Assembly: GCA_043814965.1 (NCBI GenBank)
Contig: JBDRJN010000006.1
Location: 7,838-71,837, forward strand
Source: Candidatus Omnitrophota bacterium
GTDB taxonomy: Bacteria; Omnitrophota; Gorgyraeia; Gorgyraeales; Gorgyraeaceae
DNA length: 64,000 nucleotides
Direction: 5' to 3'
Positions within the stretch are counted from its first letter, which is position 1. Every line of letters starts with the position of its first letter. The notes beneath the pieces are model-generated. The model made no database searches, was not told where the DNA came from, and saw nothing but the letters and a program-made list of their open reading frames with translations. The translations under genes were made by a program, and so were the position numbers. Below, piece by piece: positions 1-62,447 of this stretch.

Positions 1-5
1 AGGCC

Positions 6-36000: not shown

Positions 36001-39000
36001 TATGGGACGAACGCATTGGAATGTATATGGATAAGAAAAAGACAAAATTTGAAGTTATTTTAGAAACAATAGTAAAGATAAATAACAAAAATACAGTGCC
36101 GTACTTGTCAAAATTACTTACAGAAACAGTGGAATATGATGATATCTTTGAAGAAACGTATTCTTTTTATTCTATATATTCAGAGGAAAGAGAAAAGGTT
36201 GTATGTGCTATTGGTCAAATAGGAGGGGAGAAAGCTATATCTATTTTGGATAATGTATTAAAAAAGGATAAAGACCCATTAGTACGAATAAAAGCCATAC
36301 AAATGCTGGTAGATATTGGTAAACCTGCTGCTTCAAGCGTAATCAAGGCATTAAAGCATAAAGATAACAAGGTAAAATCTATAGCTATAGAGGCGATTGC
36401 TAAGACAAAAAATATAGAAGCAGTAGATAATTTGATACATATATTAATAGCTGAAGAGGATTGGCATATTAAGGAAATCGCAGGCCAGGCGCTTATTGAT
36501 ATAAGCAAAGAACATTCTTTAGACCTTGTGGAGCATGCTAAGAAAGAAGAAAAAGAATTATTAGATTTATATTTATTTATTATTAAAGGCGAATGGGAGA
36601 ATGTTGTTAAAATTGGCAGGCCAGCAATACCAGTCTTAGCTGAGCTATTAAAGAGCAAAGATACAGGGATATATAAGTCTGATCCTATAACTGTTCTCGG
36701 AGATATAGGCGATCCAAAGGTAACGCCTATCTTGCTTGATTTTATAGGTGAAGACGTGGTAGGGCCTGCAGCTCTTGAAGCTTTTATGAAAATAGGAAAA
36801 TCAGCTATTCCATACCTCATCAATACTTTAGAGAACAGCAAAGATTATTTATTAAAAGGAAAGTCCATTTATATACTTGGGAAATTAGGACATGATAATA
36901 AAGAAGTGATGAATATTTTAATTAACAATCTTAAGGGAGAAAAATATATAAAGCAGACTATAATTGCGCTTGGAGAGGCAAGGCCGCAAGAAGCCCTTTC
37001 TTATTTGATAGATATTGCGGAAGACGAAGATGATGCAAATATTTTAACTTTAACCGCAGAAGCCTTGGGAAAAATAGGAGACAAAAAGGCATTGCCTGCT
37101 TTACTTGAGTTATTGGAAACAGATGATTATAATGTCCTCTCTTATACTATGGATGCTATTGAAAAAATAGGCGTAACTAAAGATGCGATTGATGGATTGA
37201 TAAATGTATTAAAATTTAAAGAAGGAAATTACGGGATTTTTGAACAGGCTGAAAGGCTTCTTATAAAGATAGGGAAACCAGCGCTTCCATATTTGATCCA
37301 GGCAGGAGAAGATAAGGAGATAATAGCACCTAGTTATATTGAAAGAGCTGTAACCAGCATAGAAAATAATCCAGAAGAGATAATTGGCTATCTAGAATCT
37401 CAGCTTAAATCAGATGACAATAAAATGGTAAGAAATACCTTAAAGGCGCTTAAGATAATCTCACCTGACTCTAAAGCCGCGGCTAAATTCAAAAAAGAAC
37501 GCACCAATATATTCCTAAAATGGCTGGGTATAGCAGTTATCGCAGGCGCAATACTTACTGTACTTACTGCTGCATGGAGGGCGTGGCGCCAGGTTATAAA
37601 GGAGAACAAGATCAGCGTATTTATTGGAGGAGCGCTATTAACAGTTTTTTACTATTACTTATCTAATGATATGTCATTACCCATGGTCTCCCAGGCCTTA
37701 TTCTTAGGAGGAATTGTTTTAAAGAAAGATGAGTTCAAAGAATTAGACGCCTTATTAGAGTCAAAAGTGAAAAATAGCATGGTGTCTTTACATAGGAAGA
37801 TAGTCAGTGATTCAAGGAATAAAATACTTGGAGAAGACAAGAGAGAGCTTTATGAATTCAGTCTCAGGGACATAAAGAAATGGGCAGAGTTCTTTAATAA
37901 ATATAAAAGAGACTTAGGAGAGGCGGGAGCATTTATTAAAGGAGCGTATTATATATATTATGACAGGATGGAAAATGATCTTGATAGAGGTAGAGTATCT
38001 GGCCATATAGAAGATACGATATCAGGCTTGTTCCCGGAAGAAGAACTCCAGAAAAAGAGCTTAACGGACCTAGTAGATAATATAGGAAAACAAGATAAAA
38101 ATGTCTCCCAGGTAGAAGATATAAGATTGACATATCTTGAGGAAAAAGACGATACTTACAAGATATTAGACATTGAACTCGATATAAATCATAGAGATGA
38201 AGATAAGACACATGTGCCTGATAGAAAATCTTCAGAGCTTGTGCCTATTTCCCACACCATAGAAGACCTTGAAAAGATAGCCCAGGCAACAGCTCTTAAA
38301 GAGCCGGTTCTGCTTGTAGGAGAGACTGGTGTGGGGAAGACTTCTCTAGTCAGGTATCTTGCATCAGTTACGAATAATAATTTCAGGAGGTTCAATCTCA
38401 ACGGCCAGACTGATAAGACAGAGTTTATAGGAGGTTTTAAACCAAAAAATGAAGAAGGCAATACTGGATTTAAATGGAAAGACGGCATATTGATAGAGGC
38501 GATGAAGAAAGGACATTGGCTGCTTTTGGATGAGATAAATCTTGCTGAGCCTGAGATAGTGGAGCGCATAAGATATTTACTGGATAACAATGGATATCTT
38601 GTCGTAAGCGAACACGACGGAGAAAAATATATAAGCGCGGAAGAATATGACCAAAAGGTAATGGAACTTGTAAAAGGATACGAGGCTCAAGGCATAGAAA
38701 AGGCCAGAGAAGAGTTGATAAAGGACGCTATAGGCGAACTAAAATCAGGGCCTAGTCCTATATTCAGGATCCACCCTAATTTCAGGCTTTTTGCCACAAT
38801 GAACCCTCCCGAATACGAGGGCAGGAAGGATATGTCGCCCGCGCTTATGAACAAATTCAGGGTCAAATGGATAAAAGACCTTACGGAAAACGATATAAGG
38901 ACAATAATCCAGAAAAAATACAGATTCGATAAGGTTATAACTGATTCAATAATGGAGTTCCATAAAGCGCTCAAGAAACTTAACGGAAAAGACGGCTTGC

Positions 39001-42000
39001 TTGGAAGACAAGAAGGCCATACTTACTGCTTTACTATCAGGCATCTATTAAGGCTTGCAAATAGGCTTGATGACAGAAGAGAGAAAAACCTTTTAAATTC
39101 AACAGAAGATATTATAAGGGTATTATCTATAGAAATACAGGAAGTCTATAGAGAAGAAATAAAAGGCGATAGTGATATAAGATTATTTAATAACACGCTT
39201 GGTGCTATTTTTAAGGCAGGGGACTTGGATAAGGATATAGTTGTAGAGCAGAACAAGGAAGGCGGGATATGTGTAATAGGCCAAACAAGATTTCGCATAA
39301 AGAGCGAAAGAGGAAAGCTTGTACCAGGAGATGACGCTATCCTTAAACATGTTCCTACTACTAAAAAGTATCTTTCAAGTATAGCAAGAGCTGTAGACAT
39401 GAAGGAAAAGGTGCTTCTTGTAGGGCCTACAGGTTCGTCAAAGACATCCCTTATAAAGTATCTAGCGCACCTCACAAATAATGAATTTACAAGAGTAAAT
39501 CTTGATTCCCAGACTGACACGTCAGAACTTATAGGAAAACTTGTCCCGAAGAAAGAAGGGAACGGATTTCAGTGGACTGACGGTATCCTTGTAAAGGCCA
39601 TGACAGAAGGCCAATGGATACTTTTGGATGAAATAAACCTTGCTGAGCCTGATATATTGGAAAGAGTGAATTCGCTTTTAGATGACGACGGCTATATAGT
39701 GCTTACAGAAGACAATAACAGGAAAGTAGAATGCCACCCTGATTTCAGGCTTTTTGCTGCTATGAACCCGGAAAGCTATTCGGGAAGAAATAGATTGTCC
39801 AGGGCTATGAGGAATAAATTTTCAGAAAAATGGATCTCAGGGGATATGCCGAAAGAAGAGATAGAAGAAGTAGTAAGATTTTATCTTACGGATAAAGATA
39901 TTGCAAAGACTTTACCTATTGAAGAGGGCATAGCTGTATCAATATCCAAGGAAATAAGAAAAGCATATCTAACTATAAAAGATATGATTGATTCCGGCAG
40001 ATTAGGCAAACAGAAATTAAGCGGAGGAGATATAGGTGATTATGAGTTTAGCATGAGGGACCTGAGAGATTGGGCAGAATTTGTAAGAAGGCTTTCAAGC
40101 GCATCTAACATGAGCCACACAGAAGCCATGATACAAGGCGCATTGTATATCTTTAGAGATAGGTTAGAGGGGTTTGAAGATAAAAAGATATTTGAAGAAG
40201 AAATACTTAATAAGATAGACCAGGGTTCGATCTCTGCTAAAGAAAAGATAAATATAAGTTCCTTGGATGTAACAGAAGAGGAAGGCAGGGGAGAAATAGA
40301 GATATTAAAGCAGAAAATGGAAGAGGGAAGGCTTGATGAAGGAAAAGATCCGCAGGTAGTAGTATTGAAAAAATTTAAAGACCTTACAAAAAATCTTCCG
40401 ATTGAACTTAAAGGAGACCTTTATACAATAGAGAGTAAATTATCAGGTAATGATATGGCTCAGGGTATCCATGGATTTGCGATGTTGCCAGAGGGTATAG
40501 CTAAGGAATTAGTGGAATTTATACTTAATATGCCTGAGCTAACCCGCACTGATAATAAAAATATCGTTTGGAGCATGAAAAAAGCTGCTATAGATGTAAT
40601 AAGTTATCTTGAGAATAGCGGTATAAATATAAAAGACGCAATGTTATATATTCGTTTGAAAGAGGCGCTTAATAGCCCTTCTCAGGAAGTGAGAATAGCT
40701 AGCGCCTTGGCGATAAATTTAGATAATAATAGGACAAAAAAGCTTATAAAAGACCTCAAAATAGAAAGGCCTGATAAATTACCCAAAAAGGATATAAGAG
40801 AAAAGCTAAGCAAGGATTATCTAGGTATAGATGATTTAACTAAAGATGGAAATTCTAATATCCTTCCGTCAATACTATTTGGTATTTTAGCTCAAATTGT
40901 AATAGGAACAGGTAATCTATTAGGTTTAGAAAATACTTTTCTAAAAGTCGTAGCTTTTATAGGATTCTCCCTGGTTCCTTACGGGGTTTTAGCCTTGGTA
41001 AAGCAAACTTTATCTTTTAGCTATAACCTTATTTTCTCAAGGCAATATAAGATATTAAATAATATATATAAAAAGATACCTTTAAAATTAGCCGATTTTT
41101 ATGAATTAGTAAAAGATTTCTCTAAAAAACTTTTAGACACACGAACTTCAAATCTCAAAGCCGGTAAGGATAAAGAAAAAAATAGACTAACATTTTCGTC
41201 AGTAGTGGGAGGCCTTTTGATGGGCGTGACATTTGCTTTACGAGATGACTATATATTGCCATTTATTGCTGATTTTGTAAAGGATGCTTCAGGTTTGTGG
41301 GCTTCAGGAGGTGTATGGGCCCTACTTGGTTTAATGTGGTGGTCATTTTCATGGGTATTATATGCAGTACAGGATAAAGTCTTAACAGCTTTAAGGGAGA
41401 TGATATACCAGCCTTTATCTCGTAAATACGATCCTAAGAAGAAGGCAAATGAAAATTTTGATGCTTCAAAGGATATCTTAAGAGCGTATAGCCCTGAAAC
41501 AGTACAATCCTTCTCTCATCATAAAAAGCGTGATCCAGAAGAAAAGAACAGCTATTCAGAACTCTATACAAAGAAAGATCTAAATACAGTATTGAGGGAA
41601 GACGCTATAAGGCTGTATGAAGAGAACAACACTGTCAGTATAATGGATATAGCCTTGGAGATCAACAAAGACGAAGACATGCCTAAGAACCATGTGCCTG
41701 GCAAAAAGACAGCAGGACTCGTAAAGACAGTGTCTACTGTAAAGAATCTAAAGAAGATCGCGCTATCTATTGTAATGAATGATCCAGTGCTATTAGTAGG
41801 AGAATCCGGAGTTGGTAAGACCTCGCTCGTAAGATACCTTGCGTATCTGACAAACAATAATTACAGGAGATTTAACCTAAACGGCCAGACAGATAAGACA
41901 GAGTTTATAGGAGGGTGGAAGCCCAATAAAGAAGGCGGTTTTAAATGGGTGGATGGTATTTTAGTAAATGCCTTGAGGAGCGGTGACTGGCTGGTCTTGG

Positions 42001-45000
42001 ATGAGATCAATCTTGCAGAGTCGCAGGTAATAGAGAGGATAAATTCACTACTTGATGATGACGGACAACTTAGGATCACTGAAGGTGAAAAAGAAAGAGT
42101 GTTTATTAAGTCAGCTGAATATAGAAAGAGATCGAAGGAGATAGAGAACAAGGAGAGCATTTTAGAAGAAGATGCTATGAAGAAATTGGAAGAAGAGGGG
42201 ATATTTGAGATAAATCCGAATTTCAGGCTATTTGCTACTATGAACCCAACTGAGTATGCTGGAAGAAATATGCTTTCGCCTGCTCTTATGAACAGGTTCC
42301 GCGTGAAATGGATAGATGATCTATATACTAATGAGAAACAGGCGATCTTGAACTTAACATATGGCGATAAATATAATAACCCTGGGCTTAGCCAGAGACA
42401 TATAGAATATCTCACTCTCTTACATGAGGGCTTGCAGGCGCTTAGCGCATCAAGAAAACTCGGAGAAGAAGAAAGAGACCCTTATTACTATAGCCTAAGG
42501 GACTTAAGGAAGGTCTGTGACAGGGCATTGAAGAGGATGAAAAGCGAAAGTAAACCAGGCGAAGAAGTATCCGATAAATTAATAAATAATATTTTATACC
42601 AGGAATTCTTGGAGGTTTATGGCGACAGGACAAGAGATGAGCATGACTATGAAATATTAAAGGATATTGTATTAGGTACGAGGTTTGCTGGTGCGTTAGA
42701 AGATAATAAGTTTGACATAGTAGATAATAAAAAGACAACTTCATTTGGTGGTATAGAGATTGATAGATGGGACAAAGGTGGAAAATACATTCCTAGTAAT
42801 GAGGCAAAGCTTATAGAAAGCAAAACCACCAATAGGTACCTTAAAAAACTTGCTAAGAGCGTTTATATGAATGAAAAGACGCTTTTGGTAGGCCCTACAG
42901 GAAGCGCCAAGACGTCTTTAGTGAGGGGTTTAGCGTATCTTACAGGGAATAATTTTATGAGGATGAATCTTGATGCGCAGACTGATACAGGGGAGATAAT
43001 AGGGCATTTTATCCCAGAGGAAGGTTCTAAAGATAGATTCAAGTGGGTAGACGGAGACCTTGTTACTGCAATGAAAGAAGGCTATTGGGTGCTCTTTGAT
43101 GAGTTAAATCTTGCTGAGCCTGAGATACTAGAGAGGATAAATTCACTTCTCGATGAAGATGGTTCTTTAGTTATCACTGAAAACGAAGGAGAAAAATATA
43201 TACCTAGCGAACAATTCCAAAAACTAAGAGAGGAATATATCAGTAAGGGCCTTATAGATAATAATAACGAAAAGAATGTAATAGTTGTAACTAACGATAA
43301 AGGCGAGACAATAGAGAAGATATACGAAATACACCCTAATTTCCGATTGTTCTGCGCTATGAACCCAGAAAAATATTCTGGCAGGAACAGGCTCTCTATC
43401 GCAATGCGCAATAAATTGACAGAGATATGGGTACCTGGCCTTACTGATAAGGAAGAGATAAAGCATATAGTAAAAGGCTTTTTAGGGATCCCTGAAGGTG
43501 TGTCCAAGGATGTTATCGCAAGCCAGATGGTGTTCCTAAATGGTGAATTAAATAACCTAAAAGAAGAAGATCCCGAAGGTATATTAGAGGAGTATGAATT
43601 TACTATACGCGATCTAAAGGCATGGAGTGGGTATATAAATGAGTTCCAAGGTAAATTGGGCCTGGAAAACGCTTTTATAAAAGGCGCAAGGTATATATAT
43701 TATGACAGGTTCAAAACCGACAGCGAAAGAAAAGATTTTATAGAACTTATAAGAAAAGCTGTATCTAGGGAACCTCAAGAATATATAAATGAAGTCTTTA
43801 ATGCGAAGAGTAGTGAAGACCTCAAGGAACTTACTCCTGACGAAAACAATAAACTGCATGTATTGGGCGTTACTCTTGATATCAATAGAGAAGGAGGAGA
43901 GTATGTACCTGATATAGATAGATCAAAGCTCGTAATAACAGATGAGACTCTAAAAAATCTTGAAAAAGCAGCAGAATCTGTAAAGCTAAATGATAATCTA
44001 TTATTAGAAGGAGAGACGGGCGCAGGAAAGACTTCTTTAATAAGGTATCTTGCATCTATAACTAATAATAACTTTAGCAGGTTCAATCTTAGCGGCCAGA
44101 CAGAAAAGACAGATTTTATAGGAGGTTTCAAGCCTAAGGATGGTACTTTCGAATGGCAGGATGGCATACTCATAAGGGCATTAAAAGAAGGCCATTGGCT
44201 TGTCTTGGATGAGATAAATCTTGCATCATCACAGGTAATAGAGAGGATAAATTCCCTATTAGATGATGATGGTTTTATAGTAGTTACGGAGAATAAAGGC
44301 GAGAAATATATAAAGAGTGAACAATATCAAGCACTTAAGAAGCAATATACGGATGGCGGATTAAGCGAAGGAGAGGCAAAGGAAAGGCTTAATAATGTAG
44401 ACAGGATATTCGAGATAAACCTCAATTTCAGATTATTTGCCACTATGAACCCAGTAACATATGCCGGAAGAAAGAGATTTTCAAAAGCGCTTCTAAATAG
44501 ATTTAGGGTAAAGTGGATAGATGAGCTCCCAAGAGAAGACCTTAAAGAGATATTAGTTGAAAAATATAACCATACTAATATATCCAGTAAGCCTATAGAT
44601 AAGGCGCTGGATTTTTATTACAGCGCCAAGACCGCGGCAGATAAATACCCTCAGCTAAAATTGTGTTTTACAATAAGACATGTCTTAAGATGGTTCGATA
44701 GGATTAACTCTTATACCGGAAAAGATGTCGATAGTATGTTTGCTCTAGAGGCAGGGGAAGTATTTCTGGATGGTTTAGGAGAAGAGATTTCGGAACAAGA
44801 GATAAAAAGAGAGCTTGTAGAAAATATAAGAAATATCTTTGGCAGTCTGTACGAAGACAATGATATAGATATAGACAAACAAAAAGATACTATTAGCTTT
44901 GGAGAGATAAAGATAGCTGAGAAAAAAGGTAAGAGAGAACAATATATAGATAGAGAGCCTTTGTATGAGACAGATTCTACAAAAACGCTTTTAAAAAAGC

Positions 45001-48000
45001 TAGCAAAATGTGTAAATCAGAAAGAGCCGGTTCTTATGAAAGGCCTTACCGGAGGAGGAAAGACCTCTTTACCGAAATATTTATCTGATCTCACAAATAA
45101 TGATTTTGTTACACTGGACTTGGATGGCCAGACTGATACTGCGCAACTTATAGGGCAATATATCCCTGATGAAAATACAAAAACTGGTTACAGGTGGCAG
45201 GATGGGCTTCTTATAAGGGCAATGGAAAATGGCTGGTGGATACTCTTGGATGAGATAAACCTTGCTGAGGCGGATATATTGGAGAGGATAAACTCGCTCT
45301 TAGACGATGATGGGTATATAGTCCTGACTGAAGACAACAATAGGAAGGTAAAATGTCATCCTGATTTCAGGCTTTTTGCTGCCATGAACCCAGAGACCTA
45401 CGCAGGAAGGGCGAATCTTTCAATAGCGATGCTCAATAAATTTCACCAGATATGGGTTCCAAGGGATTTTACAGAAAAAGAAGATATAGAATTAGTCGGT
45501 CATTACTTAGAGACATATACAGCAATAGATAAGATGTCTTCCAGCGTACAGCATATAGAGTATAGAACTATGATAGAGAAAATGCCTTTTGATGTTATGT
45601 ATAGCGTGGCTGATCCATTAGGATTGATATATATAGGTATTAAATCGTTAAAGTCACTGATATCAAGTAAAAGGCATGGGCTTGATCTAAGTGTAAAATA
45701 TTATAATGAAAAAGGAGAAGAGATCACCGAGGACCTAAATAGAAAAGAAAAAAGAAACCTTAAAAAATTCAATCGCAGGCTTAAAGATATAGGTGTAGTA
45801 GCAAGTTATTTTGGAGGGGATTTTGAGGTAGATATACGCCCAGGGAAAAGATGGGCTATAGGATATCCTAAGGATCCGAATGAAAAACCAGTAATAACAT
45901 TCCCTAAGAATGAGCTTCTGGAAAAAGATAAGGATGTTGTGATAGGCAGTGCTTTACATGAAGCAGGACACAGAGACATATCGTGGATGGATAGTTTCTT
46001 TACCGAAAAAGAATCAAGAAGGTTTTTACTTAATGCAGTCGAGGACCCTCGCGTAAATGAATGGACTACTCTAAAGACAGAAGGGACAAGGAAATTTACA
46101 GAAGCTACATACATAGACGCATACCCAAAAGAGGCTAAGAAGAGTTTTGATGAACGAGGTATTATGCCTCACATACAGTTTGGCCTTGGGCTTATACATT
46201 ATTGGTATTATGGCGAAGAACACCCTGCGATAAAAAATACTAAAGTGTTAAAAGCTCTCCAGGATACAAGAGTGGATGCTGTAAAGGCATATAATATACA
46301 CGCAGGCACTATTACTATAACAAGGGATAAAGATATAAAGGATGGATTTATATTATATTCGCCTACATATGGTGAGCAGAAAATAGACTTGAAACTTGGT
46401 GATAGGCGCGCCTTGAGGATGAAAGACGCAGGGATGGTAGAGAGAACAGGCAAAGAAGAAATAACGTTTTATACAGGAGACGGAGAGATCCCAGTCATTT
46501 TTAAAGAAGAAGATTTCAGCAAGAAGAGCCTTTTAAATATGCGCCCGAGCGCAAAGGATAAGGAAATAGCAGCGATTGAATCAGCAAGGATCATAAAAGA
46601 AAAGATATTGCCTGTATATGAGACACTTGTAAAAGAGTCTGTAGATAATAAAAAAGAGGAGTTGAAAAAAGATAGCCTTAGCGAAGATATACAAAGCCAG
46701 GCCGAAAAGGAAGTAGAAGAAGAATCAAAGAAAGCAGCTGATGCATTAGGCCCAAAGATCTCAGAAGATGATCTAGAGGCCTCGGAGGATAAAAAGACAA
46801 AAGCTAAAGAAGACAGACAGCCAACGCCTGAAGCTAAAGAAAAATCACAGCCAATGTCAGTTGACAGCAAGAATGCGGAAGATGAAGACAAGAGAGATGG
46901 CAGTGATATAAAGGAAAGCGCTGAAGACGTAAAAGATGAACCAGGCGAACGTGAAGAATCCGACAGTGATAAGGAAAATAGGGGAGGCCAGGTTGATGCA
47001 GAGAGCTTCTTTAAAGATATGGTAAGAAAGTTTGAAACAGAAGTACCACAAACTACATATGACAATTACTATAGAGGCATAAGCAGGATCATAGAAAAGC
47101 TCTTTGGTATCCTAGATAATGAGCTCCATAAAGATACAAAATTTAGATATAAAGGCTATTTTGCAACAGGACCTAAGCCTGATATGAGAAAAGCAATGAC
47201 AATGAAAGAGACGGGAGATATGGATATATGGCTTAAACGTGTCAAGGCTATACAAAGAAGTTTTAAATTTAGCTTGGTTCTAGATGAAAGCGGATCTATG
47301 GGGCGCGGAGACAAGACAAACCCTGCTGTACAGGCCATGATAATATTTATGGAGGTTCTCTCCAGGTTGAACATAGATTTTTCTATAATAGGCTTTAGCG
47401 ACTCGCCTTCTATTCACATGAACTTTGGTGAAAGCTTCAAGCATAGTAAGAATAAAGTAGTAAAAGAAGTTATCAGATACATGGGTAAAGGCGGGACGAA
47501 TGACGCAAAGGCAGTAGAAAAGGCAACTGCCTTATTAGATAGGGAGATAAGTGATACAAAGATCATGATAGTGGTCAGTGACGGCTATGGAAATAGGGAG
47601 CTATTACGCAAGAATTTATTAAAGGCATATAAAAAAGGCATAGATGTAATAGGTCTAGGCATAGGATCTGGCATGGATTATGTTAAGGAGGTCTATGACT
47701 GCGCAAAGGTCATAGGGGACTTGAATGATCTGCCCAGGATAGTAGCCCAGGTGCTTATAGACATAATCGTAAAAGGAAAACACGTAAGGCGCAGTAATAG
47801 AGACAACGAGGTAGACATCTCTGGGGAAGTAACTAAGATAAATAAAACACAATCTGACGTCCCGGATAGCTTGACGCAATTAAACTCCATACCTATATAT
47901 CAATATATCGGTGCAGGCATAAAAGCGCTGAAGGCAGGCAGGAAACATCTAAAAGATATTAAGAAAGAGAGAGAACTCAAGAAAAAAGAGGAAGAAGAGA

Positions 48001-51000
48001 TCGCAGAACGCATGGAATTATCCAAGCCGACAGAGGAATATAAACCGACAATACATTCAGCCGGAGATCTAGCGATCCATGGAATAGACAATATGTCGTT
48101 AGAGATAGAACAGGGTAAAAACGCATATCTATACGGGACAATAAATCTTAATGTTGCAGCCAAGAATGTTACTGAGGCCTCAAAGGTAGTGCAGGATATA
48201 AAAGCCGGTTTGTTCACAGTTACTAAAAAAGATAAATTAAAATTAAAAGATATATTTGAAAAAATAGAAATAGTCAATGCATGGGATGAATCCGGCAAGG
48301 AGATCTTTGATGCTGGCAAAGAAGAAGAAGGCCAGGTCGGCACACTTTTAGGAGCAAGGTCTTTACGCTATAGGATAAAAGTTCCATGCGAAGAAACAGG
48401 CGAGTTCAAATATGCTTTAGGGTTTACATTCGATCCAAAGCTCAATGGAAAAAGCTGGAGTTATGTAAGAGATAATATTGGCATAAGTTCCTTTGCAGTA
48501 ATAAATGTGATAGATAAGACCCAAGCTTTTGAAAACAAGATCTTAAATGTACTTAGCGGGATATCCTTTAGCAGTTTAGAAGAGTTGATGGATAGGTTTG
48601 ATAACCCAGAGGAGAAAAAGAATATCTATGCCGCACTTAACAACCTATACAGCAAAAAGGCTATCAGTGTCATCTATGATAATATCGACCAGAAAGAGCT
48701 CCGTTATAGTTCGACTTCTTCCCTGGAAGAAGGCTTAAAGAACGGATCAATAATAGAGGCCAAGTCAGGCACAAAGATAAGGTTTTTTACAAAAGACGCG
48801 ATAGAAAAATCCGGCAAAAACTTAGTAAGGTATAAAGAAGGGTTATTTGATGTCCTGGATAAAGCTACGCTGCAATCCAAGCTTGATAAAAATGAGATAA
48901 GGCCTGTTTATACCAAAGAAGGCACCCTGTTTTATGAGAGAGAGTTAGTGCACAGTATGATAAAAGAGGAAAAGATCATACTCAGTAATTTCATTAACTC
49001 CGGACAATTTTTTATATTGGCAAAAGACAAAGATGATTATTTAAGAAAAGAGTTAAATAACTGTAAGAGTATATTTGAAGAGAACTTTAAGGACGCATCA
49101 AAGAACATACATGAGGCCTATGGATCAGCCCGCGAGATCTTTAATACTCCACAAAGGATAAATAGCTTAAAGAGGGCAGTGGAGATGGCTGTAAGCTTAA
49201 AGAAATGGAACGCTGATGACTATACTATCGCAGCTGCATTTTTGGAGAACATAGACCTTGAGAATAAAGATCATATAAAAAGGATAAAACAATTTGACAA
49301 AAGGTCAAAGGTCTTGAATATCCTTAAGAATTTCAGGAATGTATCCAACCTTCCGCATATACTAGAGCTGAATCTGGAGAACCATCTTGATATCCAGTAT
49401 AAGATGGACATGATCATAAAGACCTCGAGGACCCCGGAGGTAATGCTGCTTACATGGGCTGATATATTGAACAGGGTGAAGTCCGAGGAAAGAAAAGAAA
49501 ACTTTAAATATATTGCTCAAGCAGCAAGGACGCTTTACGGCCCCTTAGCAGATAGATTAGGCAGGGAAGATGTTGCCAAGGAGATCTGGCATACTATCTT
49601 TGAAAAGCAAGACCCGGAATTATGCAAGAAGGTGACAGAGGCAATGGAAAAAAGAATAGGCATGACCCTTAGCGAAGGAGAAGTGTTTTTGCATGAAGCA
49701 AAACTCAAGATAGAGAAGTATTTAAGAGACAATGATCTTAAGGCAAAGGTATACATAAGGGTCAAGTCACCTGTCTCTATGTTCGACAGGGCAAGAAAAG
49801 GACAGACAAAATATTCTACAGAAGAGGTCTTGCGCATTATCGAGACATCAAAAATGCTCAGGGATACATTAGGTATCATGGTGGTATTTGATGAGGAAGA
49901 ATACAAGATACACCAATCAGTATATTATATCGCAGCTGAGATAGCCAACATAGAAGAGGCATCGAAGTTCAGGAGAGAGGCGCTTTATGTCGACTATCCA
50001 AGGTATAGTTTCTACATAAAAGCAGAGAATGGCGCAGATATGAGCTTTATGGCTAAAGACAAAGATACCTATAAGACATATAGAGTAGGAGAATCTGCGC
50101 ACTGGCATTTTAAATTAAAAGACAGGATACTGGAAGGAAAGAAGCAGAGTTTTGAGTATTGGCCGGATGGCCTGGAATATGCAGGAGATTTTGAAAAAGA
50201 TTTTAATGCTCTAGTAATCGAACTGGATAAATATAGTTATGTGTATTATGCAGAACCTTCAAAGCAGTACACCTATCCCAAGATCATAAAACTTCCCTCA
50301 GGTTCTATTGCTGTAGACCTTGCGAGTGAAATGGGTGTATTGAACAGTGATTTTTCAGGAGTCACAGTAAAGAACCTTAAACATGACTATAATTATGGCA
50401 AAGAAATGGGAGGAACTATAAGATCAAGCCATCAACCATATGGCATTGACTATCTATTAAAGGATGGAGATATAGTCACTCCGTATAGCAGCAGAGAAGG
50501 ATTTCCTGAAAATAAAAGACTAGCCTTGACAGAAGCAATGAATAGATCGAAAAATCAGGCTGCCAGGGATTTTATAAAAGGGAAATTAAATATGTCCAAT
50601 CTAAGGATAGCTCAATGGGGAAAAGAGAGCTATCCTATACTGAATAAGATATGGCGTAGTATACTTATGGTGACAGGAGTTACACCTATACATGAACTTG
50701 GCCATATTTACGGAGCTCTTTTACAAGATGATGATAAAGTCATAAATAGCACTAAGACAATAGAAGAGTTTGAGATAAATACCAAAGGAGTATTCTTTGA
50801 AGGGAGGCTTAAGGGCCTGAAAGGGTCTTCTTTACTGTTAGGGGCTGCAGCAAATCTGATAGCTGTACCATTGGTAATATTTTCAAGTTTAGGAGCTGGA
50901 TTTGATAGTGTGTTGACGTATGTAGCGGGACTTCATATTATAGCTGGCCTTGTAGAAGTATTTTCCAGTAAGGGTGATGTAAGAAAGTTTTTTGGAGAAA

Positions 51001-54000
51001 GGCCGCTAAAAAGCATCATAGAGGATATACGTAACGGCTTGAGATCCATAAAAGACGATATATTTAAAGATAAATATAATATAAATAATGATCCTATAGA
51101 GCTTACTACACGAAAGAACTTTGAGGAGATCACCGAGAGATTCGAAGGCATAATAAAACACGGCAAGGTCTCTTCATCTGAGAAATTGCGGGATAAGATA
51201 ATACTTCTTACTATCAAGACGCCTCCTTTAAGGAATATGGCAGTATGGACGCTTAATAATATAAGTTCACGTCCAGCGCTGAGAGAAAGGCTTTCATTTA
51301 TACTTCCCATGCTGAAGTGGCTTCAGTCAAAATTTATAATCCCTGTATCAAGTAACCTTGAAGAGGCGACATATGAAGCAGAAAAAGTGATCCTTGATAA
51401 TAGGAAGAATGGCATTGGCCTTACACTTGACAGCGTCGGAGATGCTGTGCATTCAGAGGAAGAAGCAAAGCTGCATGTCGATCATTATCTCAGCATGATA
51501 AGGAATCTCGGGCCTAAAGCAAAGGACTGGGAGAAAAATGAATCTCTCGACAATGTAGAAAGGCTTCATTTTTCAGTAAAGCTTAGCGCTATTGTATATG
51601 ACGCGTGGAAAAAGAAAGGAAGAGGGTTCGCTAATAAATCAAAGATAAAAGAGACACTTAAGACACTTATAAGAGAAGCTAGCATTTACAATGCCTTTAT
51701 CCGCATTGACCTTGAAGAATACGGATACCGCGATACTACCATGGATATCTATAAGGAAGTCATTGAAGATCTTGCCAAGGAGGATGAGAATACCGTGGTA
51801 AGTGATGACAGGGGCACATTGAGGGTAGGGGTCGTAGTGCAGGCATATCTAAAAGATTCAGGAAAAGTCTTAAATGACTTATTGAACTGGGGAGAGACGT
51901 ATCATTATCGCGTGCCAATAAGGCTAGTAAAAGGCGCGTATGACGACAAGGAAAAGAAATGGGCAAGAGGCGAGTATAAAGAGGGCGAAGATGTATTTAA
52001 TGGAGGCAGGCCCTACCCAAGCCCTGTATTCAGGGAAAAGGAATCCACAGACGCTCATTATGAACTATTGAGTGAATATCTTATCATGAATAATGATAGG
52101 TTCCAGACAGCTATTGCATCGCACAATATCCGCTCTATATCACACGCAATGAGCCTTGCTGAAAATTATGAAGTTGATAAAAAGGATATTGAAATACAGA
52201 TGCTTTATGGCATGGGAGACCCTGTGAAATATGCTATCAGAGATCTAGGTTATCGTATTCGCGCGTATGCTCCTATAGGCTCATTTATAGAAGGTATGAA
52301 ATACTCGGGCCGACGCCTTAAAGAGCTTGCGAATAAGAGCAATGCGCTTACTAAGACCATGGCATGTGATTATAGATTCTTGAGAAGATTGAAAAAGGCC
52401 CCTAAATTCCAGTATGGCGACAGCCCTATTTATGTAGCAGAGGAATTTGTGGGAACACTTGAAGGGAGAAAAGAGGAGCTGCGCCTTAATAAAGCAAGAA
52501 GATGGTATGAGATATTCCCGTATAGTTTTATTATTGAGCATCCGTCTATCTTAGTATCGTGGCTCAATCATATACCTAACGCGGTCTTATATGGTTTTAT
52601 AAAACAGTTATTCCAGCCTTTTAATTATAAGTCCAGGGAGTTGGTGGATGAGTTGAGGCACAGCCTAAGACAAGAAAGGACATACAGCGCATTTATACTG
52701 TTGGATAAGATAAAAAAGATCACAAATAGAAGGTCACTTAAGTACTTATTGAATATTCTGTTCGATAAAACCATAAACAGCGAAAAGTATGAAGAAGTAA
52801 TATTAGAGATCAGAGACCATATCCAGCATATAAGGCATAAGCTTTATGCGTATAATGTAAAAAAAGATGCAAAGAACATGAAATACGATGAATACGACGA
52901 TATAAAGAAAGATTATCCATTTTTCTTTGATGATAATCAAGGCACATACCAGCATTTACGAAAGATAGCAAGCTATAAAGTGAGAAAATATAGAAGCATG
53001 AAAGGCAGTATAAATATATGGATCCCCGGGGGAGTGTCATTCTTTGAAGACGGGCCCAAGATACCATCTGCGTATATGGCAGCTATAATATTCCTGGAAG
53101 AAGCAAGGAAACAGGGATTAAAAGGCGAAGAGTTGGAGGAATTTAAAAAGGACCTTAATATTACTGTTACAGATGGCAATAAAGACGCGCTTTTACATGG
53201 CGAGATAGGGTCTTTTAATATCAATGCATTTATAAAAGAAAGCAGGCCTCTTACAAAAGAGGATAAAGAGATAGTCGAGAGATATTTTGATATCACAAAA
53301 GCTAGCGGGAGGTTAAAGGTAAAGCAAGATATAAGAGATATAATAAAATGCAAGAATGAACTATCTGTAAATTATATAAGGCCAGGGTTTTTTGATATTA
53401 TCATAGATCAGTTCGTTGAAACCAAGATAGAGATGCGCAATGAAGGGGACCGCTGGCCGATCCTAAATAACATACGTGTCGGAAACTTCATAGAAAGCCT
53501 TAAAATAGACGGAGATATCATCACTACGGGGGACAAGGGTTTTGAAGATAGTTCTTTTTTAAGAGGATATTCCAGTAAACTTCCTGTAAGCAGTTATTTC
53601 GGGGGAGAGAAATTGGAAGGATTTGCAAGGGTATACCAGAAGACATCACCTGCGTTTTACGATAACTGGCGGGACTTTGCTGCTGAGATCAATATGTTTA
53701 AAATTATTAAAAAGGATGGGATTAAATTAATGGATATCAGCCGGAAGATATTGGATACAGCATATGACTTGGCAGAGTTTGTTCATGGAGGACAGATAAG
53801 GACCAATAATAAAGAACCATATATGGAACATCTTGTAAGGACCACTATGATGCTCAGGGATGTATTCAATGTATTGGATAGATTCAAGGTCTCAGAACAT
53901 ACAAAAGTAGACCTATCAGGGTTATCCAATGATGAGATAAGACAGATAGATGACCTGTCAAGCGAGATAATATCTTCGATCGCGCTATTACATGATTCAG

Positions 54001-55631: not shown

Positions 55632-55666
55632 TACAATAATTACATTAAGTTAAGGAGGTGAATAAG

Positions 55667-56002
55667 ATGAAGTCAGGAGATTTTAAGGAAAGACGGAAAT
55701 TCAAAAGACTACAGATATCTGTTCCTGCGAAGATAAGGTATGGATCAGCAAGTGGAAAGGAAAAGGTATTGGAGGGTGTCACTCTTGACGTTAGTTTCAA
55801 CGGGGCATATTTGGTAAATATCAATATTGACAAGATCAATCCGGAAGACAACGTAAATATGTCCCTTTCAGTGCCTCGCGACAATTCCAGGGATTTTCCT
55901 TTTTCTCGGATCGTAGGTAAAGCAAGGGTAGTAAGAGTCGAGAAAAATGCCTTGGCGCTTGAATTTAATAAGGATGTTTCTAGGTTTTTTATTGCAAATT
56001 AA
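55667..56002 (+). CDS. PilZ-domain protein (c-di-GMP receptor)
   Basis: 'RRKFKR' (RxxxR) and 'DVSFNGA' (D-x-S-x-x-G) c-di-GMP-binding motifs at correct spacing. AAGGAGG at 55652-55658 lies 8 nt before ATG 55667. The ORF track begins at an in-frame GTG at 55658 inside the RBS, so the ATG is the likelier start. Confidence 0.7.
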   Translation: MKSGDFKERRKFKRLQISVPAKIRYGSASGKEKVLEGVTLDVSFNGAYLVNINIDKINPEDNVNMSLSVPRDNSRDFPFSRIVGKARVVRVEKNALALEFNKDVSRFFIAN

Positions 56003-56044
56003 AATTTTAATCCGTAATAAATATTAAAAGGATATGGAGGAATA

Positions 56045-57370: not shown

Positions 57371-57396
57371 CGGGTTACGGGTTACGGGGTACGGGT
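57371..57396 (+). repeat. G-tract repeat 'CGGGTTACGGGTTACGGGGTACGGGT' (G3N4G3N4G4N3G3: canonical G-quadruplex-forming pattern) filling the whole SBP-permease intergenic gap
   Basis: Read directly; 69% GC in an otherwise AT-rich context, abutting the ATG at 57397. Confidence 0.8.
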
Positions 57397-58287: not shown

Positions 58288-58365
58288 ATAGTCATGATAT
58301 CAAAAATCAAAGATTAAAATGCAAAATTATAGATTAAAATTCAAAAATAAAAAAGAGAGAAATTA

Positions 58366-59214: not shown

Positions 59215-59216
59215 CG

Positions 59217-59235
59217 CCTGCCTGCCGCAGGCAGG
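59217..59235 (+). terminator. GC-rich perfect hairpin (9-bp arms 'cctgcctgc' / 'gcaggcagg') directly after the permease stop; no U-tract
   Basis: 59217-59225 is the reverse complement of 59227-59235. Followed by G-tracts rather than T-run, so terminator function is uncertain. Confidence 0.3.
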
Positions 59236-59307
59236 GGGTACAGGGTACGGGAAATGGAGTAGAGATGGCTGATTACGGGTTACGGGTTACGGGGTACGGG
59301 GTACGGG
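59234..59307 (+). repeat. Second cluster of GGGTTAC/GGGGTAC G-tract repeats (G-quadruplex-type), flanking and overlapping the start of the glycoside hydrolase gene
   Basis: 'GGGGGTACAGGGTACGGG' 59234-59251 and 'CGGGTTACGGGTTACGGGGTACGGGGTACGGG' 59276-59307. Same unit as 57371-57396. Confidence 0.8.
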
Positions 59308-61613: not shown

Positions 61614-61699
61614 TGGAAGGAGGTGTGTTCTAAATATCAAAAATTAAATATAAAAATCAAAAATGAGAAAAGAAACATGAACCAGAAAGGAGTGGTAGT

Positions 61700-62377: not shown

Positions 62378-62384
62378 TTTAAAA

Positions 62385-62425
62385 GATGGGATTTTGGCAT
62401 GGGTGACCCATGCCAAAATCCCATC
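62385..62425 (+). promoter_or_regulatory. Perfect 20-bp inverted repeat 'GATGGGATTTTGGCATGGGT g ACCCATGCCAAAATCCCATC' (operator-like palindrome or strong terminator hairpin)
   Basis: Arms 62385-62404 and 62406-62425 are exact reverse complements. Located in the 70-nt gap between the lipoprotein stop (62377) and the next GH gene start (62448); only a weak 'cttt' follows. Confidence 0.5.
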
Positions 62426-62447
62426 ACAACTTTATGGAAAGTGAGAT

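What the first reader, a model, noticed from the sequence alone, without database searches (positions are those of the whole stretch)
51350..52330. Bona fide proline dehydrogenase domain fused into the giant protein
All hallmark ProDH barrel motifs are present in order ('VQAYLKDS', 'RLVKGAYDD', 'ASHNIRSI', 'EIQMLYGMGD', 'RAYAPIGSF'). ProDH is a flavoenzyme of proline catabolism normally found free or in PutA. Its fusion to a AAA+/MIDAS machine and to alarmone and acetyltransferase domains has no described precedent that I know of. It could couple proline oxidation (membrane electron transfer) to the machine or act as a metabolic sensor.
Basis: partly seen in the sequence, partly recalled or inferred. 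Interest (0 to 1): 0.75.

Follow-up and report, generated by a model that had tools for sequence, protein, structure and literature searches.

The report
Proline dehydrogenase cassette in Omnitrophota giant protein
A complete and apparently active proline-oxidising enzyme module sits near the end of a protein of more than 18,500 residues from an Omnitrophota bacterium, but it looks like one of many enzyme cassettes these bacteria string onto giant membrane proteins, not a purpose-built partner of the neighbouring motor domains.

Summary
All five quoted motifs lie in one frame of an ORF (nt 6-55586, at least 18,526 aa, open at the left edge). Pfam Pro_dh scores E 2e-64. An AlphaFold model superposes on PutA proline dehydrogenase domains, and 18 of 20 FAD and substrate residues of E. 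coli PutA are identical.

The module spans aa 17018-17474 and equals a whole free-standing ~500-aa Pro_dh-only enzyme. It is not a PutA, because no aldehyde dehydrogenase or PutA_N domain is present. A two-helix hydrophobic hairpin lies just upstream.

The source is a Candidatus Omnitrophota MAG. Giant multi-enzyme membrane proteins of this phylum are already described, although no paper found mentions proline dehydrogenase.

Related Pro_dh modules occur in at least six other long proteins, including a 7,941-aa Omnitrophota protein in a partly similar gene neighbourhood. Their partners all differ and none has the AAA+/VWA ring. I therefore find no support for specific coupling to the midasin-like machine.

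Best reading: a membrane-tethered, catalytically competent proline dehydrogenase cassette. Its electron acceptor, the fate of its product P5C and its membrane side remain open. Interest is moderate. It is a new member of a known kind.

The parts
6..55586 (+). Giant ORF, at least 18,526 aa, with its 5' end outside the window.
   Evidence: Searches show no in-frame stop from the window edge. One search gives about 1,386 stops expected by composition.
51057..52427 (+). Complete proline dehydrogenase module (giant aa 17018-17474): an N-terminal helical part plus the (beta-alpha)8 barrel. It is equivalent to a whole ~500-aa free-standing Pro_dh-only enzyme.
   Evidence: blastp and alignment to P0121-P0124 and P0001-P0010 give 37-47% identity over about 440-455 aa.
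51381..52343 (+). Pfam PF01619 Pro_dh match (aa 17126-17446).
   Evidence: E 2.2e-64, 218 bits. AF2 pLDDT 84, pTM 0.86. Foldseek to PutA PRODH domains 5UR2 and 4NM9, E 7e-24, TMq 0.79.
51579..51581 (+). Lys17192, equivalent to E. coli PutA Lys329 (substrate binding; proposed catalytic base).
   Evidence: for the mapping. PMC10651016 for the role.
51921..51947 (+). RLVKGAYDD motif. Arg17306, Lys17309, Gly, Ala and Tyr17312 correspond to PutA R431, K434, G435, A436 and Y437. Trp438 is replaced by Asp17313.
   Evidence: One search shows that D/E/L at this position is typical of the whole Pro_dh-only clade.
52266..52325 (+). Tyr17421 (PutA Y540) and the alpha-8 motif YSGRRLKE, with Tyr17433, Arg17436, Arg17437 and Glu17440 (PutA Y552, R555, R556, E559). 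The arginine pair clamps the substrate carboxylate.
   Evidence: for the mapping, for the roles.
50826..50969 (+). Two adjacent hydrophobic helices (aa 16941-16988), read as a transmembrane hairpin. It ends about 30 aa before the module.
   Evidence: Kyte-Doolittle means up to 2.07 over 19 residues. The flanks hold 4 and 5 Lys/Arg in 20 residues. No comparable hydrophobic segment follows up to the C-terminus (maximum 1.28).
49146..49562 (+). RelA/SpoT-type HD domain (Pfam HD_4, aa 16381-16519). It lies inside a longer RSH-like stretch (about aa 16390-16780).
   Evidence: HD_4, E 7e-8. TIGR00691 spoT_relA positions 25-387, E 3e-14; weak TGS hit.
52623..53720 (+). Conserved module with no Pfam hit directly after Pro_dh (aa 17540-17905). 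It tentatively has a CheR-like SAM methyltransferase fold.
   Evidence: homologous segments in P0127, P0128, P0131, P0200 and P0207. AF2 pLDDT only 65; best Foldseek hits are CheR-type methyltransferases, E about 1e-6 and TMq 0.33. Weak evidence.
53748..54305 (+). Possible second, divergent RelA/SpoT-type HD domain (aa ~17915-18100), with the motifs HGGQIR..EPY..H, LLHDSVED and DRLHNL.
   Evidence: One search shows the sequence. One search gives weak PDB hits to small alarmone hydrolases (E 7e-4). Pfam does not detect it.
54699..54962 (+). GNAT acetyltransferase domain (aa 18232-18319).
   Evidence: PF00583, E 1.9e-4, 22.2 bits against a cut-off of 20.7.
37734..45437 (+). Midasin/dynein-like AAA+ region with six AAA_5-type modules (aa ~12577-15144).
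   Evidence: AAA_5 at 448 bits in five stretches plus one more, together with AAA_lid_7 and MDN1_4th; closest relatives are Omnitrophota AAA fragments, then eukaryotic midasins.
47274..47672 (+). VWA (MIDAS-type) domain (aa 15757-15889).
   Evidence: PF00092, E 1e-12.

Best explanation
The region encodes a complete, catalytically competent FAD-dependent L-proline dehydrogenase module (giant aa 17018-17474). It is one of many enzyme cassettes carried by a membrane-anchored giant multi-enzyme protein of a Candidatus Omnitrophota bacterium.

Shown:
- The family, the fold and the conservation of the substrate- and flavin-binding residues.
- The module equals a whole free-standing Pro_dh-only enzyme and is not a PutA.
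- A hydrophobic hairpin lies just upstream.
- Related modules recur in other long proteins with unrelated partners.

Inferred:
- The module binds FAD and oxidises proline to P5C.
- The hairpin holds it at the membrane. This is most likely the cytoplasmic face, because ATP-, (p)ppGpp-, SAM- and acetyl-CoA-dependent domains lie on both sides of the hairpin.
- Electrons pass to a membrane quinone or another acceptor.
- The fusion reflects this lineage's habit of concatenating and shuffling enzymes (co-localisation, co-expression), not a dedicated mechanical or electron-transfer coupling to the AAA+/MIDAS ring.
For: - Family: Pfam Pro_dh scores E 2.2e-64.
- Solved relatives: the closest are the PRODH domains of Bdellovibrio and Geobacter PutA (E 3e-44 and 1e-36).
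- Fold: the AF2 model has pLDDT 84 and pTM 0.86, and it matches only PRODH barrels (TMq 0.79, E 7e-24).
- Catalytic residues: mapping on E. coli PutA, read from the MG1655 genome, shows K329, D370, E372, Q404, R431, K434, G435, A436, Y437, H487, N488, Q511, L513, Y540, Y552, R555, R556 and E559 all kept. Only W438 to D and T486 to S differ, and D/E/L at position 438 is the rule in the whole clade. The roles of K329, R555, R556, L513, Y540 and Y552 are taken from PMC10651016.
- Not a chimera or recent insert: GC is 0.407 in the module against 0.387 elsewhere, the frame is uninterrupted, and promoter-like sites are not in excess.
- Source: the window comes from an Omnitrophota MAG. This phylum's giant multi-enzyme, membrane-anchored proteins and their neighbouring sugar importers are described, and the window has such neighbours.
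- Recurrence: Pro_dh modules occur in P0122 (7,941 aa, Omnitrophota), P0123 (2,957), P0124 (1,667), P0151 (2,785), P0154 (2,960) and P0245 (5,021). Their partners include Cys_Met_Meta_PP, Glucosamine_iso, PGM_PMM, radical SAM, methyltransferase, NUDIX, HTH and HD_4.
- Relative constraint: the P0122 gene shares three downstream neighbours with the window's gene, in a different order (homologues of orf225, orf404 and the SBP). Only the Pro_dh module is alignable between the two giants (42.5% identity over 440 aa). This argues that it is the most constrained part.
- Membrane tether: hairpin with Lys/Arg-rich flanks.
Against: - No biochemical evidence exists, and FAD binding and activity are inferred from sequence only.
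- No P5C/GSA dehydrogenase (Aldedh) is present in the giant protein or the window, so the fate of P5C is unknown.
- Omnitrophota genomes are reported to have incomplete electron transport chains, so the electron acceptor is unclear.
- The free-standing relatives closest to this module mostly carry N-terminal signal-like segments, several with twin-arginine motifs. That hints at an extracytoplasmic location for the clade and conflicts with my cytoplasmic-face inference.
- The transmembrane calls rest on a crude hydropathy scan, not a trained predictor.
- Trp438 of PutA is replaced. From memory it contacts the FAD adenine, but I did not verify this.
- Fragmented assemblies could hide other giants that combine Pro_dh with the AAA+ ring (one search hits are 3-6 kb fragments).
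Confidence: 0.7

Rival explanations
1. The Pro_dh module is a proline- or redox-sensing switch, not a bulk catabolic enzyme. As in PutA, flavin reduction by proline would change conformation or membrane affinity. It would thereby regulate the flanking RelA/SpoT-type HD (alarmone hydrolase) domains or the AAA+/MIDAS part of the giant protein.
For: - The module is flanked by an RSH-like HD/TGS stretch upstream and a possible second alarmone-hydrolase-like HD domain downstream.
- P0151, another long protein, also combines Pro_dh with HD and HD_4.
- The closest solved relatives are PutA PRODH domains. From established knowledge of PutA, these undergo redox-linked membrane association.
- No P5C dehydrogenase is nearby, which fits a non-catabolic role.
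Against: - Five of the six other long Pro_dh-bearing proteins have no detected HD_4 domain (for P0245 this rests only on blastp against the window protein), and none shares the AAA+/VWA modules.
- The second HD call is weak (E 7e-4, no Pfam hit).
- The PutA elements tied to switching, namely the DNA-binding domain and the PutA_N arm, are absent.
- Full retention of the catalytic residues is equally expected for a plain enzyme.
Confidence: 0.1
2. The module works outside the cytoplasm. It descends from, or belongs to, a clade of exported (Tat- or Sec-dependent) Pro_dh-only flavoenzymes. It would oxidise proline or a related imino acid released from prey or host material at the outer face of the membrane.
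For: - 19 of 27 full-length close free-standing relatives have an N-terminal hydrophobic segment, against 0 of 77 PutA_N-type proteins. Six show a twin-arginine consensus such as TRRTFIK or SRRAFLK.
- Their neighbours are often envelope-related: efflux pump, AsmA, peptidases.
- West-Roberts et al. predicted most domains of such giant proteins to be extracellular.
- A hydrophobic segment immediately precedes the module in the window and in P0122.
Against: - The segment before the module is a two-helix hairpin with positively charged flanks on both sides, which keeps both sides in the same compartment.
- Domains needing ATP, (p)ppGpp, SAM or acetyl-CoA lie on both sides of the hairpin, and no further transmembrane segment follows.
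- West-Roberts et al. themselves call such extracellular predictions unreliable.
- Tyr540, which favours proline over hydroxyproline in PutA, is kept. The specificity role is from my own knowledge of the Y540S work, whose PDB entry 3E2Q appears.
Confidence: 0.13
3. The domain is a decayed relic (pseudo-enzyme), or an artefact of misassembly or read-through of a separate proline dehydrogenase gene.
For: - The neighbouring regions of the giant protein evolve so fast that they cannot be aligned with the related P0122 giant.
- The module equals a whole free-standing gene.
- There is a 12-residue low-confidence insertion in one loop.
Against: - 18 of 20 catalytic and flavin-binding positions are identical, and the two changes are conservative or typical of the clade.
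- There is no stop codon or frame break on either side, composition is uniform, and promoter-like sites are not in excess.
- An independent assembly (P0122, L005) also has Pro_dh in-frame inside a giant ORF, followed by homologues of three of the window's downstream genes.
Confidence: 0.04

Closest known systems
PRODH domain of short bifunctional PutA proteins (Bdellovibrio bacteriovorus PutA 5UR2, Geobacter sulfurreducens PutA 4NM9)
   Same: - Same Pfam family and the same (beta-alpha)8 flavoenzyme barrel.
- About 30% identity over 360 aligned columns, TMq 0.79.
- All substrate-binding residues and nearly all FAD-binding residues are shared.
   Different: - No L-glutamate-gamma-semialdehyde (P5C) dehydrogenase domain, so no substrate channelling.
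- No PutA_N arm domain.
- Trp438 is replaced by Asp.
- The module is embedded about 17,000 residues into a polypeptide of more than 18,500 residues, behind a transmembrane hairpin.
Free-standing ~500-aa Pro_dh-only proteins (P0121, P0001-P0029), found for example in Desulfovibrionales, Chromatiaceae and Planctomycetia MAGs
   Same: - They are the closest sequence relatives (37-47% identity over the whole module, including the N-terminal helical part).
- They share the clade signature at PutA position 438.
- In a rough NJ tree the window module nests in this clade, not among PutA proteins.
   Different: - They are independent genes in ordinary contexts.
- Most carry an N-terminal signal-like segment, some with twin-arginine motifs. 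The window module instead follows an internal two-helix hairpin.
Giant multi-enzyme ('Archaeovorin-type' / class 1) proteins of Omnitrophota (West-Roberts et al. 2023 bioRxiv 10.1101/2023.11.21.568195; Nielsen & Lui 2026 bioRxiv 10.64898/2026.06.07.730766)
   Same: - Omnitrophota origin and a length above 10,000 aa.
- HEAT repeats, scattered hydrophobic helices, and many unrelated enzyme domains including GNAT, HD, methyltransferase-like and AAA_5.
- Adjacent carbohydrate ABC importer and glycoside hydrolase genes.
   Different: - Neither paper mentions proline dehydrogenase.
- No SecA-DEAD or C39 peptidase domain was found in the 18,526 aa visible here, but the N-terminus is outside the window.
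- The complete six-module midasin-like ring plus VWA is not highlighted in those papers.
P0122, a 7,941-aa 'proline dehydrogenase family protein' of another Omnitrophota MAG (NCBI MFH0732760.1, locus L005)
   Same: - It is the sister of the window module in the NJ tree (42.5% identity).
- Pro_dh lies near the C-terminus of a giant ORF and is preceded by hydrophobic segments.
- Homologues of three of the window's downstream genes (orf225, orf404, sugar-binding protein) follow it, in a different order.
   Different: - Nothing else in the two giants is alignable.
- P0122 has Cys_Met_Meta_PP as its only other recorded Pfam domain and ends about 140 aa after Pro_dh.
- The window protein continues for about 1,050 aa with a CheR-like module, an HD-like domain and a GNAT domain.
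Eukaryotic midasin (Rea1/MDN1)
   Same: The upstream part of the giant protein has six AAA_5-type modules with midasin lid domains, followed by a VWA/MIDAS domain. After Omnitrophota fragments, eukaryotic midasins are the next best matches (27-30% identity).
   Different: Midasin has no proline dehydrogenase, HD or GNAT domains and is not membrane-anchored. This comparison concerns the context of the finding, not the Pro_dh module itself.

Membership tests
Proline dehydrogenase (Pfam PF01619, PRODH flavoenzymes) | Sequence match to the family profile above the curated threshold, over nearly the full profile. | tested here: met
   218 bits against a cut-off of 27, E 2.2e-64, profile positions 2-274 of 278.
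Proline dehydrogenase (Pfam PF01619, PRODH flavoenzymes) | Distorted (beta-alpha)8 barrel fold of PRODH. | tested here: met
   AF2 model with pLDDT 84 and pTM 0.86, showing alternating strands and helices; all top Foldseek hits are PRODH domains (5UR2, 4NM9, E. coli PutA86-630, Thermus PRODH), with TMq 0.66-0.80.
Proline dehydrogenase (Pfam PF01619, PRODH flavoenzymes) | Substrate-binding residues: the Lys on beta-1, the Arg-Arg pair and Tyr on alpha-8, and the Leu and Tyr that pack on the pyrrolidine ring (E. coli PutA K329, R555, R556, Y552, L513, Y540). | tested here: met
   K17192, R17436, R17437, Y17433, L17400 and Y17421. Roles are from PMC10651016.
Proline dehydrogenase (Pfam PF01619, PRODH flavoenzymes) | Flavin-binding residues (PutA D370, Q404, R431, K434-Y437, W438, T486, H487, N488, Q511, E559). 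| tested here: met
   all are identical except W438 to D and T486 to S. D/E/L at position 438 is shared by the whole Pro_dh-only clade. The assignment of these positions to FAD binding comes from my knowledge of PutA structures.
Proline dehydrogenase (Pfam PF01619, PRODH flavoenzymes) | Bound FAD and proline:acceptor oxidoreductase activity. | not testable with these tools
   This needs expression and assay of aa ~16990-17480.
PutA (bifunctional proline utilization A) | A covalently linked GSALDH/P5C dehydrogenase (Aldedh, PF00171) domain. | tested here: not met
   Searches find no Aldedh match anywhere in the 18,526 aa. By contrast L028, from another Omnitrophota MAG, encodes a canonical 978-aa protein with PutA_N, Pro_dh and Aldedh.
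PutA (bifunctional proline utilization A) | PutA N-terminal arm/alpha domain (PF18083). | tested here: not met
   One search shows no PF18083 hit. NCBIfam PutA equivalog models score far below their cut-offs (136 against 747).
Omnitrophota giant multi-enzyme membrane proteins | Encoded by an Omnitrophota genome, and longer than 10,000 aa. | tested here: met
   the downstream proteins are identical to NCBI MFH1478643-47, 'Candidatus Omnitrophota bacterium'; at least 18,526 aa.
Omnitrophota giant multi-enzyme membrane proteins | Many unrelated enzyme and scaffold Pfam domains on one polypeptide (HEAT, GNAT, HD, AAA and others). | tested here: met
   HEAT_2, AAA_5 x6, VWA, HD_4, Pro_dh and GNAT.
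Omnitrophota giant multi-enzyme membrane proteins | Numerous transmembrane helices along the protein. | tested here: inconclusive
   about 20 hydrophobic segments by a Kyte-Doolittle scan. No trained predictor such as DeepTMHMM was available.
Omnitrophota giant multi-enzyme membrane proteins | A divergent SecA-DEAD domain, reported in most full-length giants by West-Roberts et al. | tested here: inconclusive
   None was found in the visible 18,526 aa. However, the list for aa 10001-15000 shows only the best 25 of 54 families, and the N-terminus lies outside the window.
Omnitrophota giant multi-enzyme membrane proteins | Carbohydrate import genes in the neighbourhood. | tested here: met
   a sugar-binding protein, two ABC permeases and GH2-like genes lie directly downstream. 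describes the reported association.

The most novel reading that the evidence does not exclude
The Pro_dh module and the RelA/SpoT-type HD domains on either side of it form a membrane-bound unit that senses proline or redox state. In this unit, flavin reduction by proline would control alarmone hydrolysis, and possibly the midasin-like motor, in a giant protein. This would be a new regulatory use of the PutA-style redox switch.
Probability: 0.1. Interest if true: 0.65.

Novelty: new member of a known kind. Interest (0 to 1): 0.35.

Why it matters
If the module is active, a respiratory-type flavoenzyme of amino-acid catabolism is hard-wired into a giant membrane protein. Its host phylum is reported to lack a complete electron transport chain. 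That raises a concrete, testable question: where do the electrons and the product P5C go in these episymbiotic or predatory bacteria?

The module also gives a small, well-understood and assayable handle on whether the enzyme cassettes of Omnitrophota giant proteins are functional at all. A ~460-aa domain with a standard colorimetric assay is much easier to work with than the rest of the protein.

The side observation matters separately. The nearest free-standing relatives carry export signals, including twin-arginine motifs. This points to a possibly undescribed class of extracytoplasmic proline dehydrogenase-like enzymes.

The finding does not, on present evidence, reveal a new kind of machine.

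Tried and rejected
1. PutA membership is rejected, because there is no Aldedh or PutA_N domain.
2. The pseudo-enzyme reading is rejected, because the catalytic residues are intact.
3. A separate gene, read-through or chimeric assembly is rejected. There is no stop codon, composition is uniform, promoter-like sites are not in excess, and an independent assembly has the same fusion with homologues of three of the same downstream genes.
4. I tried to obtain the rest of the source contig, to get the full length of the giant gene and look for a P5C dehydrogenase elsewhere.
5. The genome-contig scan with the module alignment did not recover the source genome or any giant-embedded copy. It found only free-standing ~500-aa genes and ~1,000-aa PutA genes.
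6. The word-indexed homologue search for the module downstream of Pro_dh found nothing. Its fold assignment rests on a shallow five-sequence alignment and is weak.
7. BLASTP between the two HD-like regions of the giant protein found no significant similarity. The second HD domain is supported only by motifs and weak PDB hits.
8. The supplements of the two giant-gene preprints held no domain tables that could be searched for PF01619.
9. The search with the AAA+/VWA region returned only short Omnitrophota fragments and eukaryotic midasins. It therefore cannot show whether Pro_dh and the AAA+ ring co-occur elsewhere.
Full report
**Observation**

The window holds one enormous open reading frame on the + strand, nt 6-55586. 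It is 18,526 codons long and has no stop upstream, so the protein is longer than the window shows. Base composition alone predicts about 1,386 stop codons in a frame of that length.

Pfam PF01619 (Pro_dh) matches giant residues 17126-17446 (nt 51381-52343). It scores E 2.2e-64 and 218 bits against a cut-off of 27, and it covers positions 2-274 of the 278-position profile.

**Is it a real, intact enzyme domain?**

By sequence, the closest solved structures are the proline dehydrogenase domains of Bdellovibrio bacteriovorus PutA (5UR2, E 3e-44) and Geobacter sulfurreducens PutA (4NM9, E 1e-36). E. coli PutA and Thermus PRODH lie further away.

An AlphaFold2 model built on 28 homologues has pLDDT 84 and pTM 0.86, with the alternating strand-helix pattern of a barrel. 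Foldseek against the PDB returns only PRODH domains at the top (E 7e-24, TMq 0.79).

I read E. coli PutA from the MG1655 genome and aligned it with the window module and its homologues.
- The following residues are all identical: K329, D370, E372, Q404, R431, K434, G435, A436, Y437, H487, N488, Q511, L513, Y540, Y552, R555, R556 and E559.
- T486 is Ser. W438 is Asp.
- The roles of K329, R555, R556, L513, Y540 and Y552 in substrate binding are described in PMC10651016.
- Asp, Glu or Leu at position 438 is shared by all members of the clade the module belongs to, free-standing or embedded. It is therefore a clade feature and not decay.
- Tyr540 is kept. From my own knowledge of the Y540S work it biases PutA towards proline over hydroxyproline; the corresponding PDB entry 3E2Q is listed.

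**What exactly is the unit?**

A search of 1.84 billion representative proteins, followed by blastp, shows that homology to other proteins runs from about aa 17018 to 17474. That is roughly 100 residues more than the Pfam match on the N-terminal side.

This span equals the whole of a family of ~500-aa proteins that contain Pro_dh and nothing else (P0121, P0001-P0029; 37-47% identity). No aldehyde dehydrogenase (P5C dehydrogenase) domain and no PutA_N domain exist anywhere in the giant protein. NCBIfam PutA equivalog models score far below their cut-offs. The module works like the PRODH half of PutA but is not a PutA.

Immediately upstream (aa 16941-16988, nt 50826-50969) are two adjacent hydrophobic helices with Lys/Arg-rich flanks on both sides. 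No comparable hydrophobic segment follows up to the C-terminus.

**Context within the protein**

| Giant residues | Content |
|---|---|
| 1-10,000 | No Pfam match at all |
| ~10,866-12,378 | HEAT repeats |
| ~12,577-15,144 | Six AAA_5-type modules with midasin lid domains |
| 15,757-15,889 | VWA domain |
| ~16,390-16,780 | RelA/SpoT-like stretch (HD_4, TIGR00691 positions 25-387, weak TGS) |
| 16,941-16,988 | Hydrophobic hairpin |
| 17,018-17,474 | Pro_dh module |
| 17,540-17,905 | Conserved module with no Pfam hit; low-confidence model most resembles CheR-type methyltransferases |
| ~17,915-18,100 | Stretch with RelA/SpoT-type HD motifs and weak hits to small alarmone hydrolases |
| 18,232-18,319 | GNAT domain |

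The Pro_dh module is thus about 1,240 residues from the VWA domain, with other domains and a membrane hairpin in between.

**Source and known background**

Four of the five downstream proteins looked up are identical to NCBI entries MFH1478643-47 of a 'Candidatus Omnitrophota bacterium' MAG, on a 152,804-bp contig.

Giant proteins are a described hallmark of this phylum. West-Roberts et al. (bioRxiv 10.1101/2023.11.21.568195) report proteins of up to 85,804 aa. These carry many transmembrane regions, HEAT repeats, embedded metabolic enzymes, GNAT and AAA_5 domains, and neighbouring carbohydrate import systems. Nielsen & Lui (bioRxiv 10.64898/2026.06.07.730766) define a class of 'multi-enzyme metabolic clusters' among 916 long proteins, 94% of them membrane-targeted. 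They also report incomplete electron transport chains in the phylum.

The window fits this picture, down to the sugar-binding protein, two ABC permeases and GH2-like genes directly after the giant gene. Neither paper mentions proline dehydrogenase, and no paper in the library holds both 'proline dehydrogenase' and 'Omnitrophota'.

**Does the fusion recur, and with what?**

Among the best 150 representatives, Pro_dh modules sit inside six other long proteins.

| Protein | Length (aa) | Other domains found |
|---|---|---|
| P0122 | 7,941 | Cys_Met_Meta_PP (named 'proline dehydrogenase family protein [Candidatus Omnitrophota bacterium]' by NCBI) |
| P0123 | 2,957 | Glucosamine_iso and PGM_PMM |
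| P0124 | 1,667 | Radical_SAM and methyltransferase; same architecture in L013 |
| P0151 | 2,785 | Glucosamine_iso, HD and HD_4 |
| P0154 | 2,960 | NUDIX and HTH domains |
| P0245 | 5,021 | Not scanned with Pfam (length limit) |

- By blastp against the window protein, each of these shares only the Pro_dh module and none shares the AAA+, VWA or GNAT parts.
- A rough neighbour-joining tree places the window module as sister to P0122, inside the Pro_dh-only clade. P0151, P0154 and P0245 fall among PutA-like sequences, so embedding has happened more than once. This is distance-based and only indicative.
- Homologues of the window's orf225 (54% identity), orf404 (44%) and sugar-binding protein (55%) follow the P0122 gene, in a different order. 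Pro_dh is the only part of the two giants that can be aligned.

That pattern argues that the module is the most constrained part of a fast-changing protein. It also argues that its partners are interchangeable.

A search with the AAA+/VWA region found only short Omnitrophota fragments and eukaryotic midasins. It cannot show whether the two ever travel together elsewhere.

**Mechanism**

The best-supported reading is a membrane-tethered, catalytically competent proline dehydrogenase cassette. It would oxidise L-proline to P5C on bound FAD and pass the electrons to a membrane acceptor.

I place it at the cytoplasmic face for two reasons. The hydrophobic element is a two-helix hairpin with positive flanks, and domains needing ATP, (p)ppGpp, SAM or acetyl-CoA lie on both sides of it. 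These steps are inferred and not shown.

Open points:
- No P5C dehydrogenase is in view.
- The electron acceptor is unknown in a phylum with fragmentary respiration.
- The topology is inferred from a crude hydropathy scan.

**An unexpected complication**

Nineteen of 27 full-length close free-standing relatives begin with a hydrophobic signal-like segment, against 0 of 77 PutA_N-type proteins. Six show a twin-arginine consensus, for example TRRTFIK, SRRAFLK and NRRAFLK. Their gene neighbours are not conserved but are often envelope-related.

This suggests that the clade's free-standing members may be exported flavoenzymes. I found no paper on this. It keeps alive a rival in which the window module acts outside the cytoplasm.

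**Rivals**

- A PutA-style proline/redox sensor that controls the flanking alarmone-hydrolase-like domains is not excluded. HD_4 also accompanies Pro_dh in P0151. However, it has no positive support beyond adjacency.
- Relic or artefact readings are contradicted by the intact residues, the uninterrupted frame, the uniform composition (GC 0.407 against 0.387) and the independent, partly syntenic example.

**Verdict**

The fusion is real and not discussed in the literature I could search. It belongs, however, to a described class of Omnitrophota giant multi-enzyme proteins. It recurs with varying partners, and nothing ties it specifically to the AAA+/MIDAS ring. I rate it a new member of a known kind, of moderate interest (0.35).

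What I could not do is listed under the next steps: the genome-wide search for P5C dehydrogenase and quinone metabolism, a trained topology prediction, and any biochemistry.

Noticed in passing
Proteins P0001-P0029, P0121, P0125, P0126; loci L001-L003, L006-L012, L018: The closest free-standing relatives of the window's Pro_dh module are ~500-aa Pro_dh-only proteins in Desulfovibrionales, Chromatiaceae, Planctomycetia and other MAGs. Most carry N-terminal signal-like hydrophobic segments (19 of 27, against 0 of 77 PutA_N-type proteins). Six have a twin-arginine consensus (TRRTFIK, DRRVFLK, TRRQFMR, SRRAFLK, NRRAFLK, DRRAFIK). This may be an undescribed clade of Tat/Sec-exported proline dehydrogenase-like flavoenzymes. 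No paper was found.
   Followed up: partly
window 52623-53720 (+), giant aa 17540-17905: A conserved ~365-aa module with no Pfam or NCBIfam hit lies directly after Pro_dh. It is shared with other long proteins (P0127, P0128, P0131, P0200, P0207; 29-39% identity). A low-confidence AF2 model (pLDDT 65) best matches CheR-type SAM methyltransferases (E about 1e-6, TMq 0.33).
   Followed up: partly
window 53748-54305 (+), giant aa ~17915-18100: A possible second, divergent RelA/SpoT-type HD (alarmone hydrolase-like) domain with the motifs HGGQIR..EPY..H, LLHDSVED and DRLHNL. It gives only weak PDB hits to small alarmone hydrolases (E 7e-4) and no Pfam hit. It has no BLAST similarity to the first HD_4 domain of the same protein.
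   Followed up: partly
window 48900-51056 (+), giant aa 16299-17017: The 'alarmone' region is more than an HD domain. It matches TIGR00691 spoT_relA over model positions 25-387 (E 3e-14) and has a weak TGS hit. No clear RelA_SpoT synthetase Pfam hit was seen.
   Followed up: partly
window 37734-47672 (+), giant aa ~12577-15889: A bacterial midasin-like unit of six AAA_5-type modules with midasin lid domains, followed by a VWA domain. Its closest relatives are fragmentary 'AAA family ATPase' proteins of other Omnitrophota (38-48% identity), followed directly by eukaryotic midasins (27-30%).
   Followed up: partly
window 6-30005 (+), giant aa 1-10000: Ten thousand consecutive residues have no Pfam match at E <= 0.001. 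They are interrupted by about 15 hydrophobic, transmembrane-like segments.
   Followed up: no
window 55658-63662 (+); locus L005 27068-29826: Directly after the giant gene come a PilZ-domain gene (a family annotated as c-di-GMP receptors), a sugar ABC importer (binding protein plus two permeases), a TPR/GH2-like protein, an unannotated 225-aa ORF and a 404-aa glycosidase-like ORF. Homologues of the 225-aa ORF, the 404-aa ORF and the binding protein also follow the Pro_dh-bearing giant gene P0122 in another Omnitrophota MAG.
   Followed up: partly
locus L028 871-3804; locus L036 9401-10591: Other Omnitrophota MAGs encode an ordinary PutA. L028 has a 978-aa protein with PutA_N, Pro_dh and Aldedh. 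L036 has a PutA_N plus Pro_dh fragment cut by the contig end. The phylum therefore has both canonical and giant-embedded proline dehydrogenases.
   Followed up: partly
window giant aa 13623-13665 (nt ~40872-41000): A pair of hydrophobic helices scores as transmembrane-like between the second and third AAA+ modules, which would be odd for a closed AAA+ ring. It may be a buried helix pair and not a membrane segment.
   Followed up: no
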